Source: Eledone cirrhosa
Taxonomy: Eukaryota
Length of the DNA: 64,000 bases
NCBI GenBank assembly: GCA_964016885.1
Contig: OZ024754.1
Span: 6,882,001 to 6,946,000, forward strand
Direction of reading: 5' to 3'
Shown: in pieces, positions 19,699-51,143 of the stretch
How the letters are laid out: the number at the start of each line of letters is the position of its first letter
Numbering within the stretch: the first letter of the stretch is position 1
The notes under the pieces: model-generated
What the model was told of the DNA's origin: nothing
The model's input: the letters and a program-made list of their open reading frames with translations, nothing else
Databases searched by the model: none
Position numbers and translations under genes: made by a program

Positions 19699-21720
19699 TA
19701 TATTTAAGAGTTAAACAAGGTTCAATGAATACATCAAAGAATGAGTTTTTCAATAGATTGGAAGCACTCAACAGAAAAAATGTTTTCCAGAGTTATTAAT
19801 ATTAATTCAAAATATTAACAAAATAGATATTCTTGTGATCAATTATATTTTATTATACATATTTCAGAGGTACTGAGTTAAGCTCAACAGTACGTCCTCA
19901 TCAGATAAAATAAAATGACACATGACATACCCTGACATAGTAGATGCTTAAGATTCAGTCATGGTAGTGATTAACTTATGACAAAACTCAATATTTATAC
20001 CCTAATATTGAGAACATGAGATAACATAATACAAACAATAGAGAGGGTGCGTGTAATAGATTTTAAGAAATATATGGCATCAATATAACAGTTATAAAAT
20101 TTTTATTTTTTAAAATTTACTGGAGAAAGAGGAGGGAAAGGAAAGCATAGAGGAAGAAACAGCTGATGTGATAATATATTTAGTAGGTGGCTTGAGAAGA
20201 CAGATGAAAGATGATTAAAGAGAGAGAGAGACAAAGGGGAGTAATTTATGTTCAAGTTTATATACACACAGATTTCTATATAATCAACACGTGTCCAGAA
20301 TAATATAGTTGGCAGTTAATTTTCAAAACATGCGAGCGTGGAATATGGACGTTAAACGATGATGATGATGATGATAGTAAAAATAATGGAGCAAAGGACT
20401 CGCGTATAATCCTGTACACACACTATATATATATATCATCATCATCATCATTTAACGTCCATTTTCCACGCTAGCATGGGTAGGACTGGCCGTCACCCCT
20501 TTGTGAGTGATCAGGTCAGAGGACCATGTTTTGCTCACACAGAACTGATTTTGGCTTGGTTTCTACAGCTGGATGCCCTTCCTAACTCCAACATTTACAG
20601 TGTGTGAACTGAGTGCTTTTTGTTGTCACACACACCTACAGAATAAGCACCAGACTGATGTACCTCCAGGCTTCGGACAGATGCTTTTTGTTTTTTCTTT
20701 CTTTAAAAACCTTCCATCATAATTTTATGTAAGAACCTTTCTTGAGTTATGCTCCAAACACCAGTTTAATAATGATAAAGTTAGTTATATCAGTAAGTCT
20801 AAAGTCTGTCTTAAGCCAGAAGGCTCCTTTAGCCGGTGCTTACCCTGGTTTCATGACGTGAAGCGAGTGAGAGTGCAACACTCCCCCCCCCGGACAGGAT
20901 GCCAGTCCATCACATGGTTAAACCCCCAGCTATTGCTGCTACTCATTTTCAGCTAAGTACACTGGAGCAACGTGAAATGAAGTGTTTTGCTCAAGGACAC
21001 AACACACAACCCAGGAATCGAACCCACAACATTATGATCATAAGTCCAACACCCCTTACCACTAGGTCACATTCCTCCATAGTTATATCACTAAACCCCT
21101 CCATATTCTTAATTATTTTTTCAATTGTTGGGAAACCATTGGTAGTGTCTTTCATTTGATATATGGTAATGAAAGGGTTAATATCAAATAGCCGTAAGCA
21201 ATATAAGTAATTATATAATTAATATAAATAATTATATCATGAGTAATATAATTAGAACAATAGCACCTAATGCTAGTTTTCAACAGTTTTTGTGACAGCA
21301 ATTTGGTAGAGTTGTTGCAGTGTCACATTAACCTCTTAGTATTTAAACTGGCCACATCCGGCCTGAATTCTCTCACCTCTTTCTGTTCAAACCAGCTGTA
21401 ACTTAGCCACTCATACTCATGTTAAGGTATTGTTCTCAAAATAAATAATATCAAAATCTCATAGATTCAATATTATGTGAGATAATTAAGTGAGATAAAA
21501 TCTTCACCGGGAAAATACAATAGTATATAGAGAGTAAGGTAAATGTTCTAGGACAGAAATTGGTATTTTAAGGTGTTTAAATGCTGTGTGTATCCCAGTT
21601 TTTAGAATAGATATATGTCGTAAGAGATGACTAAGAGAGTTGGTGTCAGGAAGGGCATCTGACTGTAAATCATTGTTTCAAAACATCCCGTTTAACTCAT
21701 GGAAAAGTAAACATGAAAAT

Positions 21721-26477: not shown

Positions 26478-26819
26478 CTCTAATATAAATCTTGAGATTT
26501 TATGTCCTTTATATTTCTTTGTGTGTGTGTGTGTGTGCCTGCACCTGTCAATTTTATAGGACAAATCCTGTTTCACAAAAGCTGTTCTGGGTTATTCTAA
26601 GCTTTTTTGTTCTAATCAAGGTTGGGTTTGGGTAGGGCCAGAGATATTGTATGTTGGTATTTGAGTATATTTGTGTGTGTGTGCTGACTTGATCTGTAAC
26701 AACTGGGCTTACATAACCAGTCTATACTAGGATATAAAAACTGACAATTAAATGGTGCATTTCGTCTGATGCTTTAATGACAACTGCCTCTCCACCCCCT
26801 ACACCCCTACACCGTGAGT

Positions 26820-27128
26820 TGAAAGAGAAACAGTGTATAAGAGGGATAAGCTGTAGTGTGCGGGAAAGAAGACTGCAATGGTATAGACATGTGATGCGCA
26901 TGGAGGATTACCACTGGGTAAAGAAGTGCCAAGAAATCCCAGTGGAAGGAAGACACAGTAGAGGAAGACCACGAAAATCATGGGCGGAGGTGGTGAGAGC
27001 AGACCTCAGATCGCTGAAGCTCACGGAGGAGATGACAAAGGATTGTGACAAATGGAGAAATGCTGTGCTGAATAGGACCCGTCCCACCCTTGCAAGCAGG
27101 GAAAAGAGGACATAAAATGATGATGATG
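26820..27128 (+). mobile_element. RTE-clade LINE 3' fragment
   Basis: RERRLQWYRHVMRMED...GRPRKSWAEVVRADL...WR motifs and a (GAT)n tail. Same or related family on the minus strand at ~37570-37880, 41718-41870, 42258-42530 and 45555-45850, and decayed at ~62165-62520. Confidence 0.88.
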
Positions 27129-32190: not shown

Positions 32191-32548
32191 CTAGTTAGGG
32201 CTGGACACCAATCACCTTCCTTTTTCCTAGGATTCACAACCATAATCACTCTTGCTATTGTTAAATACATACTTCCACCATGTCATACATATATGTGTGT
32301 CTTTGTGTGTTTGTGTAGCCATTAAACGGTGATGATGATGATGATGATGATACTTGAAAGTGGGACTTTCAGGTATCATCATTACTGTTTAACGGCTACA
32401 CAAACACAGACATATACAAACATATATATATATATACACACGTGTGTGTGTGTGTATATATATATGTATATATATACATTATGAAGAGAGAAGAAACATT
32501 TAGATATAATTAGTAATAAAATGTATCATACCTAAACTGTTCCTAAAT

Positions 32549-32636
32549 TCCTCGACTACGTAGTTTCGTGGCATAAACAAAAACAATATATCAAAGATAT
32601 AGGGTCCTTGCGAGGTCTGCCGACTTATCAAGAGGA
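32549..32636 (-). ncRNA. Type I hammerhead ribozyme, U3-A8 core variant
   Basis: Minus strand: stem I TCCTC/GAGGA, core TTGATAA, extended stem II GT(C)GGCA...TGCCAC, GAAA, palindromic stem III ACTACGTAGT, GTC cleavage triplet. Confidence 0.75.
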
Positions 32637-32899
32637 TACCTCATTTTACTAGTCTCAAGAACGCGTCTACACGACGTGAGAAAGAATCCCAAAAGGCGGA
32701 GGGGGAGATAGTCACGCGATATAACGGTCGAGAAACAGAGCTAAGCCTCTTATAACCACGAAGAAAATACCACGGAGGCGGAGGGGGTATTCATATCGAG
32801 GCCGTAGAAGAGGTAGTGAAGAAGGTGAGAAGTATGAGTAATGGAAGCTTTCCAGTTGTCCCCACACTTCAAAGATTGCTCGACCAGAGGGAGTTATTA

Positions 32900-33219
32900 A
32901 TATATTTAGAAACACACAGATACATGCGGACACACACATATATACATGAATGCATCCGCACCCAACTGTGAGTTAAGGGTGCCAACTTCACCGATGTTGC
33001 TCAATGAATGACTGGGACAGACCAATTCAGTTTGAACCAGACTGAACCAGTATCAGAGTTAAAAATACATTATGAAGTCTGGTTCAAACTGAATTGGTCT
33101 GTCCCAGTCATTCATTGAGCAACATCGGTGAAGTTGGCACCCTTAACTCACAGTTGGGTGCGGATGCATTCATGTATATATGTGTGTGTCCGCATGTATC
33201 TGTGTGTTTCTAAATATAT
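32900..33219. repeat. Apparently perfect inverted repeat, 144-bp arms, 32-nt spacer
   Basis: 32900-33043 is the reverse complement of 33076-33219 by direct reading. Confidence 0.92.
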
Positions 33220-33401
33220 GTATATATATATATATTTATATATATTTATATATATAAATTTATATATTTATATATATTTATATATATAAATTTATATATT
33301 TATATATATTTATATATATAAATGTATATATTTATATATATTTATATATATATATATATTTATATATATTTATATATATTTATATATATTTATATATATA
33401 T

Positions 33402-33773
33402 TTGTGTGCAGAGGATATACGCAGACTAGAGAGGAACGAAGCTTGCATGCTCCGCTGGATGTGCAATAGTAATATACGTGAACGGCAAAGCATAAACGAA
33501 CTAAGGAAAAAATTAGAAATAAGAGGATCAGATGTTGTTCTACTCGAGAGAAGGCTACGTTGGTACGGTCACGTGATGCGCATGAAAGACGACAGCTGTA
33601 TAACAAAGGGCAGGGCAATAAAGATAGACGGTAGCCACGGAGTAAGCAGACCCAGAAAAACATGGGACGAGCTGATAAATTCCGACCTCACACGCTTACA
33701 CCTCTCCAAGACAATGTCACTGGACCGAGACCTTTGGCGGTACTCAGTAATAGAGAAGACCCGCCTTACCTAA
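33402..33773 (+). mobile_element. RTE-clade LINE ORF C-terminal fragment (different subfamily)
   Basis: [14 protein letters not shown]...[13 protein letters not shown]...[14 protein letters not shown]...DRDLWR. Confidence 0.88.
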
Positions 33774-34859: not shown

Positions 34860-34956
34860 ATATATGTAGGAGGTGAGTTTTATTGTAGTACAATAAAGCA
34901 ATGCAGATATCGGATAAGTAGCACTCTACAGTTTGTAGGACTGGAGTATAAATAAT

Positions 34957-35276
34957 ATATAAGATCAAAAGATGGTTAAAAGAGTTCCATGTATTTTATT
35001 ATGCGCATTTCAAAAACAAATATCATCATGCGATGACATTTGCGTTTTCGTCAAATAAAATAGGGAGACATGATATGAAGGTTAAGAAACACTTGTGAAT
35101 AGTGCAGTTTTATGTTGATTTAAAACTGCACTATTCACAAGTGTTTTTTAACCTTCATATCATGTCTCCCTATTTTATCTGACGAAAACGCAAATGTCAT
35201 CGCATGATGATATTTGTTTTTGAAATGCGCATAATAAAATACATGGAACTCTTTTAACCATCTTTTGATCTTATAT
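34957..35276. repeat. Near-perfect inverted repeat, ~156-bp arms, 8-nt loop
   Basis: Centre GCAGTTTTA-tgttgatt-TAAAACTGC; only two mismatches seen between the arms. Confidence 0.93.
35171..35241 (+). ncRNA. Type I hammerhead ribozyme (intact core)
   Basis: Stem I TATTTTAT/ATAAAATA, CTGACGA, ~12-bp stem II closed by GCAT, GAAA, palindromic stem III ATGCGCAT, ATA triplet (cut after 35233). Confidence 0.8.
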
Positions 35277-35591
35277 TATATATTTATATATATATATCAT
35301 CATCATCATCATCGTTTACTGTCTATCTTCCACACTAGCATGGTTTAGACGGGAGTTGTCCCACTTGAGGCAAGATTGGTCGGTGACCGTGTCTCGCTCG
35401 TATAGGACTATCTGGCAGGTTTTTCTATGGCTGGATGCCCTCCCTAACACCAACCACATTTACAGTGTGGACCAACACATTTACATATCTATATTATATA
35501 TACATATATACATATACATATAATTATGGGATAAAGCTTATCGAATAGAGTGGACACAGCTTCAATCATTTCCTCACTCGTATATGTGTAC

Positions 35592-39618: not shown

Positions 39619-41096
39619 GGTGCGGACGATATTTGTTCGCAAGATTACTGTCTAGGAAAAAAATATGTGTATGATGCAACACTGATTCTTTATATATACA
39701 CACACACACATATATATATATATATACATACATACACATATATACATATACATATTTGCGTATGGGATAAATGACCCAGAAACATGTTGATTGTTCCTTA
39801 AAGCCAGTGTTGAAAAAACAGGTGATGAACAATCACTGGCATGGTACAGCTTCAAATTGGGCCGTTTATTTACAAACGAATTGAACATTTTTATTACTAT
39901 TCGATATAATCCATACGTACATATGTATATGTATATATGTGTGTGTATGTATATATACTGTAGAGTGCTTCGAATCTGTTATAAATAAATTTGTTGAATA
40001 ACCAACAAATTAAATACCTCTTTGCTTATATATATGTTTGATATGTCTAAGTGAAATAATACAGCCAATTTTCCACACAATACATTTAGTTAGCACCCCT
40101 AACGCTTAATTAGGAATATACTCACTTATTTCCTAATGTTTGTTGAGTGAGTTGGAATTTAGCCAGAGTATCGCTAAAAGCTTTCTACGATAATGTATTT
40201 ATATATTATATATATATATATATATGAACATGTGCATACTTAAATTTATATATCAGCTGTGCTAGGGCGAAAAATATAATTCTAATTTTATTTTTTCAGT
40301 ATATATAGTTTTATTTATTCCACACACACACACACACACACGTGGAGTAATTAATAAACCTGGCACCATACCTGTGTATAGATTTGAGAATAAGCAAGCC
40401 AAAAAAGAAAAAAAGAAAACTTCACACACCTCAGAGCATATAAAAAAAAAATTAATTTACTATAATTGAGAGTTATGTTGAATGAAATTTGAACAAATTA
40501 TTAAAAACTGTCATTGGTTACCTGTAGTTTTGGGGTCACCGTACTTGACCTCGTTTAATAAACCTAGCCTAGTTCTCCTCAATTTACAGTTGTATTACCT
40601 TTCATTTTGGCATTACTGTTTCAGTGAAGTTCACTCATGTATGAGTTGTTAGCCTTTTGACCCACAACTAATCCTGCAACTGGCAAGGAGTGTATGACAT
40701 GGCATTCTGTTTGCGAGGGAATTGTGGTTTTAAGAAATCTCAAGGAGAGAAAAAACAAATCCTTCATAATAAATGACCTGTTTGCTATTTCCTAGAACAC
40801 GCAACATGTTAGCCGCCAAATCACTTTCCAGTTAAAATGAAAGTTTGTAGTCTCTCTCTCAGGGAAGGGAAGGCAGATGTTAAAAAGCAATGATGATGAT
40901 GATATATATATATATCTGTGTGTGTGTATATATATATATATTACTTTATATATATATATATATATATTTCACAGCACCAATACTAATACGTAATTTTTGC
41001 TGGACTGGCAATCGTTCTGTTTAATCAGCTCCTGATTATTTCTGGAATTCTATAAGAATCCTGCCTCTATAATTCTTGGCAAAGGCAACTGAGTGT

Positions 41097-41146
41097 GTGG
41101 TCTTGATAAACGCTCACAAGCGAGAAACAGACTGTCTGTCGGCCGC
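41097..41146 (+). ncRNA. Type I hammerhead ribozyme, U3-A8 core variant, within a 321-bp unit (40965-41310)
   Basis: Stem I GTGGTC/GGCCGC (two G-U pairs), TTGATAA, stem II CGCT-caca-AGCG, GAAA, stem III ACAGAC-T-GTCTGT, GTC triplet (cut after 41140). Confidence 0.75.
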
Positions 41147-41685
41147 TCTCTCTTGTTTATGCCGAGAATAAGTAAGTGACATAGTCACTACTTTAAAATT
41201 CATAGCGAATGGTTTTCTAAATATTTTTAATTAAACATACGGTATATTGCTAAATATACTATACATACATTCATGTATACATCGCTATTTCAGAGCACCA
41301 ATCCTAATACCATATATATATATGTATCATCATCATCATCGTTTAACGTCTATCTTCTACGCTAGCATGGGTTGGACGGTTTAGTCCCACTTGAGGCGAG
41401 GTTGGTCAGGAGACCGTGTCTAGCTCGTACAGAACTGTCCCTGGCAGGTTTTCTCTGGCTGGATGCCCTTCCTAACACCAATCACATTTACAGTGTGGAC
41501 TGGTAGCCTTTTTACCGAGGCCATATTAGTTTGGTTTTGGTTGTAACTGCCTTAGCTCCTCAAATTGTAAACCTAAAAAATAATGAAATATTATAAAAAA
41601 TCCTTTAAATTTGGAAAAGATTTATGTTTCTTGATAGAGGGGGCCGGGCGAGCTTGTGATATTATTCCCTCACCGGTTAGCCCCT

Positions 41686-44369: not shown

Positions 44370-45038
44370 CATATGTATATATAAATATGTATATATATGT
44401 ATGTATATATATATATGAATATGTATGTATGTATATATATAAATGTATATATATGTATGTATTATGAAAGTAGGGTGTTTAACTCCAACACGCTCCAGTA
44501 TTTTAACCCTTATATATATATGTATATATGTATGTATATATATATATGAATATGTATGTATGTATATATATAAATGTATATATATGTATGTATGTATATA
44601 TATAAATGTATATATATGTATGTATGTATGCATGTATATATGTATATATATATAAATGTATATATATGTATGTATGTATGTATATATATATATAAATGTA
44701 TATATATGTATGTATGTATATATATATATAAATGTATATATATGTATGTATGTATGTGTATATATATATGTATATATATATATGAGTATGTATGTATGTA
44801 TATATATATATGAATATGTATGTATATATATATATATATGAATATGTATGTATATATATATATATGAATATGAATGTATGTATATGTATGTATGTGTATA
44901 TATATATATGTATATATGATGATGATGATATATGTGAATATATATGTGTATATATATATATATGTGTGTGTGTGTGTATATATATGAATATATATATATA
45001 CACACTCACACACACACACATATTTATATATATATATA
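44370..45038. repeat. Degenerate (TA)/(TATG)n microsatellite
   Basis: Read directly; similar tracts at 50311-50760, 56770-57098 and 63120-63745. Confidence 0.95.
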
Positions 45039-45536
45039 TTATTAGTACAAATTAAAAGTTTAAGCAAACAATTTCTACTTTCACACCAAAGCGGGATCTT
45101 CTGAAACTGAGAAATATCAATCTGTGGACACAGATGTAAATATTTTGAAAAAAATTACAACCAAATTTTGCCTTTAAAAAATAGACATACATAGCAGTAA
45201 CATGTGAAGACATTCACTTGAGATATGGTGAAATTTAAAAAGAATATTAGTCTCCTGATTTTTCATAGCAAGAATTTGTTCTTCCTACTTCACTTCATTA
45301 TGTAATTAAATATTTTATTCTCTTTGCATAACATTTTGCTGTATCTCAAGTGAATGTCTTCACATGTTACTGTTAAGCCTATCTATTTTTTAAAGGCCAT
45401 ATTAGGTTGTAATGTTTTTCAAAATATTTACATCTGCATCCATGGATTGATATTTCTCAGTTTCAGAAGATGCCGCTTTAGGGTGAAAGCAGAAATTATT
45501 TGCTCATGCTCAAGCTTTTAATCTGTACTAATAATA
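45037..45536. repeat. Older diverged inverted repeat, ~190-bp arms
   Basis: CAGTAACATGTGAAGACATTCACTTGAGATA / TATCTCAAGTGAATGTCTTCACATGTTACTG and GATCTTCTGAAACTGAGAAATATCAATC / GATTGATATTTCTCAGTTTCAGAAGAT. Confidence 0.88.
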
Positions 45537-47308
45537 GATATTTATTTTACGGGTTTCATCATCATCATACGTTGTCTTTTCCCTGCTTGCAAAGGTGGGA
45601 CGGGTCCTATTCAGCACAGTATCTCTCCATTTGTCACGATCCTTCGCCATCTCCTCCATGAGCTTCAGTGATCTGAGGTTAGCTCTCACCACCTCCACCC
45701 ATGATTTTCATGGTCTTCCTCTACTGTGTCTTCCTTCTATTGAGATTTCCTGGCACTTCTTTACCCAGCGGTCATCCTCTATGCACATCACATGTCCATA
45801 CCAACACAATCTTCTCTCCCGTCTATCCCTCTTATACACAGTTTCTCTCTCATATATATATATATATATATAGTAATAATAATAATAAATGTGAAGACTA
45901 AAATCCGAAGTGGGCTCGATAAGGATAATATATATATAAAAATATATATATTTTATATATCATCATCATCATCATTTTACGTCCGCTTTTCCCTGCTTGC
46001 AAGGGTGGGACGGGAACTGATTCTGGCTTGATTTCTACAGCTGGATGCCCTTCCTAACACCAACCTCATTTACAGTGAGTGCTGGGTGCTTTTTTTCCGT
46101 GGTGCCTATATATATATAAAGAATTTACTGAGTAACCAAGAAATAACCACAAGCAGGAATCGAACCCGTTTGCTGCAGGCATCCATTTTTCCAGTTGTTC
46201 ACTCCAGTAACAATACAAGTCTCTTATGTCTGGTGAGCCGTCCTCTCATGACCTTCAAGAAGTTTGTATCTTCTATCTATATACTTGAAATTTCTTATCA
46301 GTAAGTAGCTAACTGAAGTATTATCAATTGCTATAGTAAATGCCTTTCAGTATTTACTTCAATCCTGCCGCTATGGTCTGTGTTCAAATCTCAATGAGAT
46401 TGACTTCATTTACCTTTCATCTTCCTTTCTCAATAGAGTAAGTTGGGACTTAGAATGAGGTTATTGTCCTAAATTATCAGAGATATTCTACATTCGATTC
46501 TATGATATAAAATCTCTCATTTTATATTATCTGTATTCAAATTAAAACCATCCTTCATAATTTTATGTAAGAACTTTTTATGTTATGTTATCTTCCAAAC
46601 TCTTGTTTAATAATTGTTTTTACTTTTGGCACCAGGCCAGCAATTATCCCAGTGCATTACTGGTGCTTTATTTTATTGACCCCGTAAGGATGAAAGGCAA
46701 AGTTAACCTTGGCGGGATTTGAACTCCGACCGTAAAGGGCCGTAACTCTATGCCACAAAGCATGGCGTCTGATGGTCTACCAATTCTGCTAATCCATAAT
46801 GGTCTCTGATTTAGGCCACAAGGCCAACAATTTTGTGGGAGGGGAAATTCAATTAAATCAACCCCAGTGCCTTATTGATACTTCATTTTATCGACCTGAA
46901 AAGGATGAAAGGCAAAGTTGATCTCGGCGCGATTTGAACTTGGACTCGAAATGAATACCACAAAGCATTCTATCTGACATTCTAACGATTCTACCTATTC
47001 ACCGCTTGTTTAATGATAGTTTCTGATTTAGGCACAAGGTCAACAATTTTTTTTTGGGGGGGGGTTGAATAAATTGACTCCAATGCATTACTGGTACTTT
47101 ATTTTATCGATCCCGTAAGGTTGAAAGGCAAAGCTAACTTAGGCGGAATTTGAATTCAGAACGTAAAGGGACATAACTATATACCACAAAGCATGTTGTC
47201 CGACGCTCTACCAATATTGCCAATAATAAAAGCCCAATAAATTTAAGTTTATAAAGGGGATTATTTCAGAAATAAACTATGGATAATTTCTCACAAGATA
47301 GCTTTTAA

Positions 47309-50914: not shown

Positions 50915-51143
50915 TATATATATTTCGAAGGTACTGTGTTGTTTTTTTCAGTACGTCCTCGTCAGATAAAATATATGATTTGATATATGACATATGTCTA
51001 CTGTCTTGATATTTCAATTCCAGTACTGCCAATACTGGAATTGAAATATCTAGGCCAGAGAGGTATGTCATATATCAAATCATATATTTTATCTGACGAG
51101 GACGCACTGAAAAAAACAACACAGTACCTTCGAAATATATATA
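50915..51143. repeat. Inverted repeat (~110-bp arms) with a CTGACGA-stem-GAAA motif in each arm
   Basis: Centre TTCCAGTA-ctgccaa-TACTGGAA; cores at 51093-51135 (+) and 50965-50923 (-). A homologous single copy lies at ~19710-19930. Confidence 0.85.

What the first reader, a model, noticed from the sequence alone, without database searches (positions are those of the whole stretch)
32473..33219. Second, unrelated U3-A8 hammerhead next to a perfect 144-bp fold-back
Seen: minus-strand HHR at 32549-32636 (TCCTC-TTGATAA-extended stem II-GAAA-CTACGTAG-TC-GAGGA) with a perfect 10-nt palindromic stem III. ATACATTATGAAG occurs at ~32474 and again at ~33065, suggesting a ~590-bp unit with short terminal redundancy whose distal part was then duplicated in inverted orientation (32900-33043 / 33076-33219). 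Inference: the same double change in two unrelated elements argues for selected covariation rather than decay. Identical arms imply a recent event or homogenisation.
Basis: partly seen in the sequence, partly recalled or inferred. Interest (0 to 1): 0.7.

Follow-up and report, generated by a model that had tools for sequence, protein, structure and literature searches.

The report
Retrozyme copy with two-armed Penelope footprint
This is one young copy of a 591-base non-coding repeat present thousands of times in this animal genome; its unusual ribozyme core is the family norm and already published, and its mirror-image arm was likely made at insertion by a borrowed Penelope-type enzyme that would copy the RNA from both cut DNA ends at two fixed start points.

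Summary
Observation confirmed: type I hammerhead (minus strand 32549-32636, core UUGAUAA, 10-nt palindrome) and a perfect 144-bp inverted repeat. It is one young insertion of a 591-nt non-coding retrozyme family: 6,322 of 6,338 genomic core hits are U3-A8, none C3-G8. U3-A8 hammerheads and head-to-head inverted arms with a 'tail' on one end are published for Penelope-like elements (PLEs). What this adds: copies end at two fixed sites 165 nt apart (published tails are 30-40 nt) flanking a conserved folded domain; in an unbiased sample 27 of 27 resolved two-armed insertions had one arm at each site; in 16 of 37, neither arm can be a snap-back copy of the other. This favours priming from both target strands over the published self-priming idea. 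A young protein-coding PLE family here has the same U3-A8 core, the same ribozyme-to-first-end spacing and similar end motifs: a candidate partner, not proven. The 13-nt redundancy is incidental. Independent origin of U3-A8 is not shown. Cleavage, expression and circles are untested. The scan noted this family before on other DNA of this genome.

The parts
32474..33077 (-). Arm A: 604 nt = one 591-nt unit plus 13 nt; its 3' end (32474) is the family's fixed end A, abutting (TA)n
33076..33219 (+). Arm B: unit positions 35-178 in inverted orientation; its 3' end (33219) is the family's fixed end B; 2-nt overlap with arm A at the junction
32549..32636 (-). Type I hammerhead motif with U3-A8 core, bulged and extended stem II, palindromic stem III; predicted cut between 32554 and 32553
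   Evidence: family counts
32555..32564 (-). 10-nt palindrome (A15.1 to U16.1), predicted to pair with a second unit's palindrome to give a double hammerhead
   Evidence: sequence; dimer fold
32487..32548 (-). Conserved hairpin between the ribozyme and end A; predicted to be extended by pairing of the end-A sequence with the ribozyme's cleavage strand
32900..33064 (-). 165-nt 'tail' between end A and end B; strongly folded multi-hairpin domain (z -5.7) with compensatory changes across subfamilies
32460..32476 (+). Left copy of a candidate target-site duplication in the (TA)n target, marked by a G at 32466 (8 to 17 nt, limits ambiguous)
   Evidence: low-complexity, so tentative
33214..33230 (+). 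Right copy of the candidate target-site duplication (G at 33220)

Best explanation
This is a single recent insertion of a 591-nt non-coding hammerhead retrozyme, likely copied into a (TA)n microsatellite by a borrowed Penelope-like RT/GIY-YIG enzyme that would prime from both cut DNA strands, one at each of two fixed sites on the RNA, so that the fold-back is likely an insertion product and not a later duplication. Shown: family size, U3-A8 consensus, conservation of the ribozyme and of the folded tail, two fixed 3' ends 165 nt apart, head-to-head arms with one of each end, (TA)n targets, same-source arms. Inferred: the enzyme nicks both strands; each 3' end starts reverse transcription, one at site A and one at site B; the two cDNAs run towards the RNA 5' side, stop at scattered places and are joined through 1-5 nt of microhomology. 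Inferred with less support: the template is a ligated circle made by dimer-dependent self-cleavage (about 55%; uncleaved multimeric transcript is the alternative), and the partner is the young U3-A8 PLE family of L144 (about 50%).
For: U3-A8 in 6,322 of 6,338 hits, C3-A8 8, U3-G8 8, C3-G8 0. Shared variants at 1 of 26 positions in the ribozyme's 3' part against 131 of 533 elsewhere, p=0.007; same core in a sister subfamily only 71-77% identical. In 55 loci taken from the first 100 pattern hits: 27 two-armed insertions A/B, 0 A/A, 0 B/B, 2 A/other, 1 unresolved; one-armed copies 12 A and 14 B; p about 6e-9 under independent choice. Sister subfamily: 14 A/B, 1 B/B, 1 B/other of 16. All 45 adjacent opposite pairs are head-to-head; 29 of 45 overlap by 1-7 nt. 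81 of 83 A/B ends abut (TA)n. In 16 of 37 A/B insertions neither arm lies within the other. Arms are closer to each other than to the median other copy in 32 of 35. 24 of 37 A arms and 13 of 37 B arms exceed one full unit. A protein-coding family (RVT_1 and GIY-YIG) has core UUGAAAA in 28 of 30 copies, is young, has two fixed ends (33 of 44 ends) with one of each in 6 inverted pairs, first end 92 nt from GAAA against 90-94 here, and similar end motifs. A purified PLE protein cuts and extends both strands, starts at two internal RNA sites and is predicted to be a dimer (PMC11167929).
Against: For this very copy a snap-back origin is geometrically possible (arm B lies within arm A, loop 34 nt; 3 of 37 are like this). 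One B/B insertion (L177) and three insertions with an off-site end exist. No 5' end of 128 falls at the predicted cut site, and arms run through it, so cleavage leaves no direct trace. The unit has no alignable homology to any of 50 GIY-YIG loci beyond an independent copy in L139, so the partner rests on short AT-rich motifs and spacing. Folding predicts that a lone unit extended past end A does not form stem I (probability 0.00). Only 1 of 9 Xenopus retrozyme dimers cut in vitro (bioRxiv 10.64898/2026.07.22.740005), and ribozyme cleavage was dispensable for insertion in vitro (PMC11167929). Arm lengths are uncorrelated. No raw reads across this junction were seen.
Confidence: 0.8

Rival explanations
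1. Self-priming (snap-back): one cDNA is primed at the target, folds back on itself and copies itself to make the second arm, as hypothesised for PLE inverted repeats; the second arm is then trimmed at the other fixed site.
For: Published hypothesis based on palindromes at PLE inversion junctions (PMC3846280, passages). Fits this copy: arm B lies within arm A with a 34-nt loop and 2-nt microhomology. The two 5' ends lie within 35 nt of each other in 8 of 37 insertions (p=0.07). Explains identical arms.
Against: In 16 of 37 insertions neither arm is contained in the other; only 3 of 37 allow a loop of 40 nt or less. It predicts same-end pairs or random second ends, whereas 27 of 27 resolved pairs are A/B.
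Confidence: 0.1
2. Twin priming as above, but the template is an uncleaved multimeric read-through transcript, and the hammerhead is conserved for another step (for example freeing the RNA end or binding the protein), with no circle involved.
For: Arms cross the predicted cut site without a break and no 5' end sits on it. For the anole PLE, unprocessed RNA was the main substrate and ribozyme mutants inserted normally (PMC11167929). Private variants shared by all tandem units (33 cases) fit a homogeneous source array as well as a circle.
Against: Arms of up to 4.9 units (L080) need long source arrays, and linear copying with 5' truncation can only shorten arrays over generations. Circles are the main form of other animal retrozymes (PMC7229834, part 4). 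The dimer fold gives a complete composite hammerhead.
Confidence: 0.35
3. The fold-back is a later DNA-level duplication with homogenisation, or a chimeric-read/assembly artefact, next to an ordinary solo repeat.
For: Arms are identical; no raw read across this junction was obtained (searches gave contigs for the holders).
Against: The second arm stops exactly at the family's end B and is followed by different flank; a candidate target-site duplication brackets both arms; 45 such pairs in 80 loci have different junctions but the same outer ends, and older ones have diverged arms; a second data set shows (TA)n loose ends at both fixed ends (X4).
Confidence: 0.04

Closest known systems
Metazoan non-LTR retrozymes (Cervera and de la Pena 2020, PMC7229834; Li, Clavereau and Pollet 2026, bioRxiv 10.64898/2026.07.22.740005)
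   Same: Non-coding unit of a few hundred bases, one type I hammerhead per unit, monomers to short tandem arrays, thousands of dispersed copies, PLEs proposed as the mobilising partner.
   Different: Core is U3-A8 with a bulged, long stem II, which Rfam misses. In the text I searched of PMC7229834, 'inverted', 'target site' and 'microsatellite' do not occur; two fixed ends and two-armed insertions are not described in the parts of either paper that I read. Expression and circles are untested here.
Hammerheads in PLE pseudo-LTRs, including the U3-A8 variant of Schistosoma Cercyon elements and the bulged-stem-II, palindromic-stem-III variant of Drosophila virilis Penelope (PMC4209133)
   Same: U3-A8 covariation, short stem I, long stem II with a bulge, palindromic stem III, predicted dimer activity, pairs on opposite strands 100-700 bp apart.
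   Different: Here the motif sits in a repeating non-coding unit, is nearly invariant across thousands of copies, and has a 10-nt palindrome.
Endonuclease-containing PLE insertions: inverted 5'-truncated arm and a 30-40-bp tail on one end (PMC8557442, PMC3846280); two RT start sites of the anole Poseidon element (PMC11167929)
   Same: Head-to-head arms, optional 3' extension on one arm, AT-rich or (TA)n targets, microhomology at the 5' junction.
   Different: No ORF; the two ends are 165 nt apart (68 nt in the candidate partner) and flank a conserved folded domain; one-of-each pairing is nearly strict, and arm geometry argues against self-priming.
Natural U3-A8 hammerheads (Perreault et al. 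2011, PMC3088659)
   Same: Same compensated core pair, reported there as natural and active in vitro.
   Different: Activity of this RNA is not tested.

Membership tests
Type I hammerhead ribozyme | Three stems around the conserved core, with a Watson-Crick pair at positions 3 and 8 | tested here: met
   U3-A8 core, GAAA, UC, stems I-III present; helices 96.7-100% paired in 12 sequences, the core stems nearly invariant and so uninformative on covariation
Type I hammerhead ribozyme | Match to an Rfam hammerhead model | tested here: not met
   No hammerhead hit at E up to 10 in 32490-32900; expected for a variant core and long stem II (inference)
Type I hammerhead ribozyme | Site-specific self-cleavage | not testable with these tools
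   Conservation and a composite dimer fold are indirect only
Metazoan non-LTR retrozyme | Non-coding tandem unit of about 150-1000 nt with one type I hammerhead per unit | tested here: met
   591-nt unit in arrays at many loci; no ORF of 100 codons within the element. This copy alone has one ribozyme, a monomer in the terms of Li et al.
Metazoan non-LTR retrozyme | Dispersed high copy number | tested here: met
   6,338 core hits; 55 loci in the first 58 Mb of C1
Metazoan non-LTR retrozyme | Expressed as linear and circular monomer RNA | not testable with these tools
   No RNA run was available to lay
PLE-mobilised element | Head-to-head inverted 5'-truncated arm | tested here: met
   45 head-to-head pairs and 0 tail-to-tail in 80 loci
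PLE-mobilised element | Two alternative 3' ends (tail), present on one end of the insertion | tested here: met
   Ends A and B, 27 of 27 resolved pairs one of each; tail is 165 nt, not 30-40
PLE-mobilised element | AT-rich or (TA)n target, with short target-site duplication | tested here: inconclusive
   Target met: 81 of 83 ends. Duplication weak: 11 of 37 against a shuffled mean of 6.0, p about 0.04
PLE-mobilised element | Sequence homology to the pseudo-LTR of an autonomous PLE | tested here: inconclusive
   No alignable homology in 50 GIY-YIG loci of 150 scored and 10,597 candidates; only end motifs, spacing and core match the L144 family
Autonomous PLE | ORF with RT and GIY-YIG endonuclease | tested here: not met
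   None in the element or attached to it in the 55 loci, whose ends abut (TA)n

The most novel reading that the evidence does not exclude
The family is a natural read-out of the unsolved PLE insertion step: a dimeric PLE enzyme holds one circular ribozyme RNA, cuts both strands of (TA)n and starts one reverse transcription at each foot of a 165-nt folded domain, rolling round the circle from both ends; the first start site also base-pairs with the ribozyme's cleavage strand, coupling protein binding to ribozyme switching; and the young U3-A8 PLE family of L144 is the enzyme donor.
Probability: 0.25. Interest if true: 0.7.

Novelty: new variant of a known kind. Interest (0 to 1): 0.45.

Why it matters
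The value is mechanistic. How PLEs make their head-to-head arms and one-sided tail is still open: self-priming was proposed in 2013 and two start sites were shown in vitro in 2024. Thousands of short young copies with ends 165 nt apart make the geometry easy to read, and it favours priming from both target strands with one start site each. It also names a small RNA substrate and a candidate enzyme in the same genome, which makes the proposed retrozyme-PLE partnership and circle copying directly testable in vitro.

Tried and rejected
Horizontal transfer: 20 of 24 listed runs, under 17 organism labels and 16 studies, hold part of the stretch. I laid runs of 5 of the 17 labels. Contigs of A, B, E and G carry the unit with 1-2 differences but no host flanks; raw DNA reads of organism G gave 0 and 3 partial reads in 1,938 million letters each, and a second sample of organism E gave none, while organism D gave a summed depth above 100,000. 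No RNA holder was listed; this says nothing on expression. Rfam over the window gave only microsatellite-driven miRNA hits among the 150 of 299 shown. A short-stem-II relative with the same 3' half: 7 hits, all looking like deletion copies. 5' ends at the cut site: none of 128; 11 in 525-550 against 5.6 expected, p=0.03 uncorrected, in a sample chosen on the ribozyme, not pursued. Equal arm lengths: no correlation. End-A pairing with the cleavage strand as a general PLE rule: holds in this lineage (0.98, 0.97, 0.55) but not in the L144 family (0.08) or the 318-nt family (0.00-0.02), and in an isolated duplex scan other parts of the unit pair better. An A-to-B closing helix appears in one fold but not in the alignment fold, and both sites are AU-rich: not relied on. 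The PLE end table was discarded because its pattern also matched internal sites; counts come. The 68 disagreements between arms at diagnostic sites (of 872) are mostly gap-placement and end effects and were not used. A possible 80-nt intron after the ribozyme was seen by eye and could not be tested. Look-ups of earlier findings by sequence and nearby gave nothing.

Full report
Observation. The motif and the fold-back are as described. The minus strand at 32549-32636 reads as a type I hammerhead: 5-bp stem I, core UUGAUAA, stem II with a bulged C and a long extension, GAAA, a 10-nt palindrome, UC. The arms 32900-33043 and 33076-33219 are 144 nt and perfectly complementary. Rfam misses the ribozyme. 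The window is microsatellite-rich DNA from a 3.0-Gb genome; no call names the organism.

The family. A search of the genome with 411 bases gave 43 matches at 93-100% among 40 candidates scored, many spaced 590-593 nt apart; the period is 591. A 19-nt pattern free at core positions 3, 7 and 8 has 6,338 hits against 1 for the control. Eight have C3, all C3-A8; eight have U3-G8. So 6,322 of 6,338 are U3-A8 and none is C3-G8. The pattern sees only copies with this family's flanks. The window copy differs from the majority of 80 loci at 3 positions, so it is young.

Selection on the RNA. In 80 loci, positions 511-529 (GAAA to stem I, not part of the search pattern) differ in 0.6% of cells against 2.3-3.4% elsewhere. 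Variants shared by two or more loci touch 1 of 26 positions in 504-529 against 131 of 533 elsewhere, p=0.007. A sister subfamily 71-77% identical keeps the same core and palindrome. On 12 sequences chosen from 110 to span the subfamilies, 98.7% of cells pair over 82 pairs, 6 pairs change on both sides, and slid controls give 30-57%; the two-sided changes lie in the downstream hairpins, the core stems barely vary, and most of the structure was derived from these same sequences. The 165 nt between the two ends fold at z -5.7.

Two fixed ends. I fetched all 55 loci behind the first 100 of the 6,338 hits and mapped arms. 3' ends fall at unit position 9-14 (end A, 80 nt past the predicted cut) or 176-186 (end B); 81 of 83 abut (TA)n. 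5' ends scatter over the unit (128 ends in 80 loci), so the 13-nt redundancy here is where this arm happened to stop. The script found 31 two-armed pairs in the 55 loci: 27 A/B (26 insertions; L053 is duplicated), 2 A/other (L049, L062), 1 called A/A and 1 unresolved. The A/A case (beside L047) is a sister-type insertion and is A/B on its own reference; L064 is a sister-type fragment left unresolved. That gives 27 A/B, 0 A/A, 0 B/B. One-armed copies are 12 A and 14 B (L072 counted B), so independent choice gives p about 6e-9. The 25 similarity-picked loci add 12 A/B and 2 unresolved. In 19 distinct sister loci, picked with a bias to end B, 16 are two-armed: 14 A/B (one is the L047 case), 1 B/B, 1 B/other. 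All 45 adjacent opposite pairs are head-to-head, 29 with 1-7 nt overlap.

One source, two primings. Arm-to-arm divergence is below the median to other copies in 32 of 35 pairs and at or below the minimum in 19; 9 pairs are identical, older ones are not. Locus-private variants are shared by both arms in 25 cases and not in 66. In 37 simple A/B insertions (L074 left out as complex), neither arm lies within the other in 16, so the second arm cannot be a snap-back copy of the first; only 3, this copy among them, allow a loop of 40 nt or less. Arms often exceed one unit (24 A, 13 B of 37) and cross the cut site unbroken; the sample was chosen on the ribozyme, which favours one crossing per locus. 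In this copy a G-marked stretch of the (TA)n flank occurs on both sides, a candidate 8-17-nt target-site duplication; across the set the signal is weak.

Artefact and other samples. A chimeric read would mirror on through the ribozyme; this arm stops at end B. Contigs of run X4 show (TA)n loose ends at 32475 and 32900. No raw read across this junction was seen. Holders under other organism labels look like trace contamination where I could test them.

Partner. GIY-YIG has 10,597 candidates, 150 scored. In 50 loci examined the unit has no alignable homology. A restricted motif scan there found 28 U3-A8 and 6 C3-G8 hammerhead-like motifs. [quoted passage not shown] Its copies end 92 nt (14) or 160 nt (19) from GAAA, of 44 ends; 6 inverted pairs have one of each, 2 have one fixed and one other end. 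End A here is 90-94 nt from GAAA, and both end motifs resemble those of L144. These are short AT-rich motifs, so this is a candidate only.

The 'second' U3-A8. The hammerhead at + 41097-41146 belongs to a 318-nt family with ends about 30 nt apart; U3 in 24 of 24 and A8 in 23 of 24 copies. It does not align with this unit. With U3-A8 also in protein-coding PLEs here, shared descent is as plausible as repeated origin; no tree was built.

Mechanism. Inferred: arrays are transcribed; palindromes of two units pair to give a complete composite hammerhead (minimum-energy fold), while a lone unit extended past end A is predicted to be blocked by pairing of end A with the cleavage strand (0.98 here, 0 of 100 shuffles as high; 0.55 in the sister; absent in two other families). 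A PLE protein then nicks both strands of (TA)n and primes once at A and once at B; the cDNAs stop at scattered sites and join by microhomology. If one priming fails, a one-armed copy results. Circle against uncleaved multimer is not settled.

Literature. PMC4209133 (parts 1-2 of 4 read): U3-A8 in Schistosoma Cercyon elements, opposite-strand pairs, bulged stem II, palindromic stem III, low in vitro activity, circles proposed. PMC3088659 (passages and section 8): natural U3-A8, active in vitro. PMC8557442 (passages): inverted arm, 30-40-bp tail often at one end only, (TA)n bias. PMC3846280 (passages): 31-bp tail on one inverted pLTR, 8-10-bp duplications, self-priming hypothesis. PMC11167929 (parts 1-2 of 4): both strands cut and extended, two start sites, predicted dimer, protein-assisted ribozyme. 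PMC7229834 (passages and part 4 of 6): retrozyme circles, PLEs as candidates. bioRxiv 10.64898/2026.07.22.740005 (parts 1-3 of 5): retrozymes derive from pLTRs; 1 of 9 dimers cut. Searches listed no paper that, by title or abstract start, describes this family, a 165-nt tail or twin priming for PLEs; subscription papers, Repbase entries and all supplements were not seen and may bear on this. Earlier scan notes describe the same family and reading on other DNA of this genome; my counts were made before or apart from them.

Verdict. A real, young retrozyme copy. Core variant and fold-back are known kinds; the long folded tail, near-strict one-of-each ends and arm geometry are a useful addition to an open mechanistic question. 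New variant of a known kind; interest 0.45.

Noticed in passing
window 40965-41315 (+): Copy of a 318-nt repeat family with a second U3-A8 hammerhead (41097-41146), two ends about 30 nt apart and inverted arms; a 77%-identical relative in L144 has different stems with the same core.
   Followed up: partly
window 34947-35286: Another head-to-head inverted pair (166-nt arms, 96%) with a hammerhead in each arm; one reads CUGACGA, the other UUGACGA (U3-G8, a probable point change). Both arms end at nearly the same place.
   Followed up: no
window 50915-51143: Inverted pair of a further C3-G8 hammerhead family; one arm ends inside the ribozyme's stem III, running into (TA)n.
   Followed up: no
window 19846-19912 (-): C3-G8 type I hammerhead related to the one at 50915-51143.
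   Followed up: no
window 45028-45545, 58623-59148, 61369-62932: Older or longer inverted repeats (72-97% arms), possibly more PLE-type insertions.
   Followed up: no
L049:1997-2390: Older copy whose second arm ends at unit position 360 next to (TA)n: a possible third start site or a deletion.
   Followed up: no
L114-L161 (GIY-YIG loci): An abundant, more decayed protein-coding PLE family has a small UUGAUAA hammerhead with a CCGG palindrome in its 3' region; L163 has a third such motif; L154 lies near tandem C3-G8 minimal hammerheads.
   Followed up: partly
L058, L073, L081, L027, L041, L063 flanks: Insertions often sit in the (TA)n tails of other PLE-type elements, or close beside them, building nested clusters.
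   Followed up: no
window 33258-33773 (+) and 26738-27115 (+): Fragments that read like the C-terminal end of a non-LTR (RTE-like) ORF, by recall only; one lies directly right of the (TA)n flank.
   Followed up: no
runs X1, X2, X8, X10: The unit assembles as a near-perfect closed 591-nt contig in runs labelled as other organisms; high-copy repeats like this can mimic horizontal transfer or circular RNA through trace contamination.
   Followed up: partly
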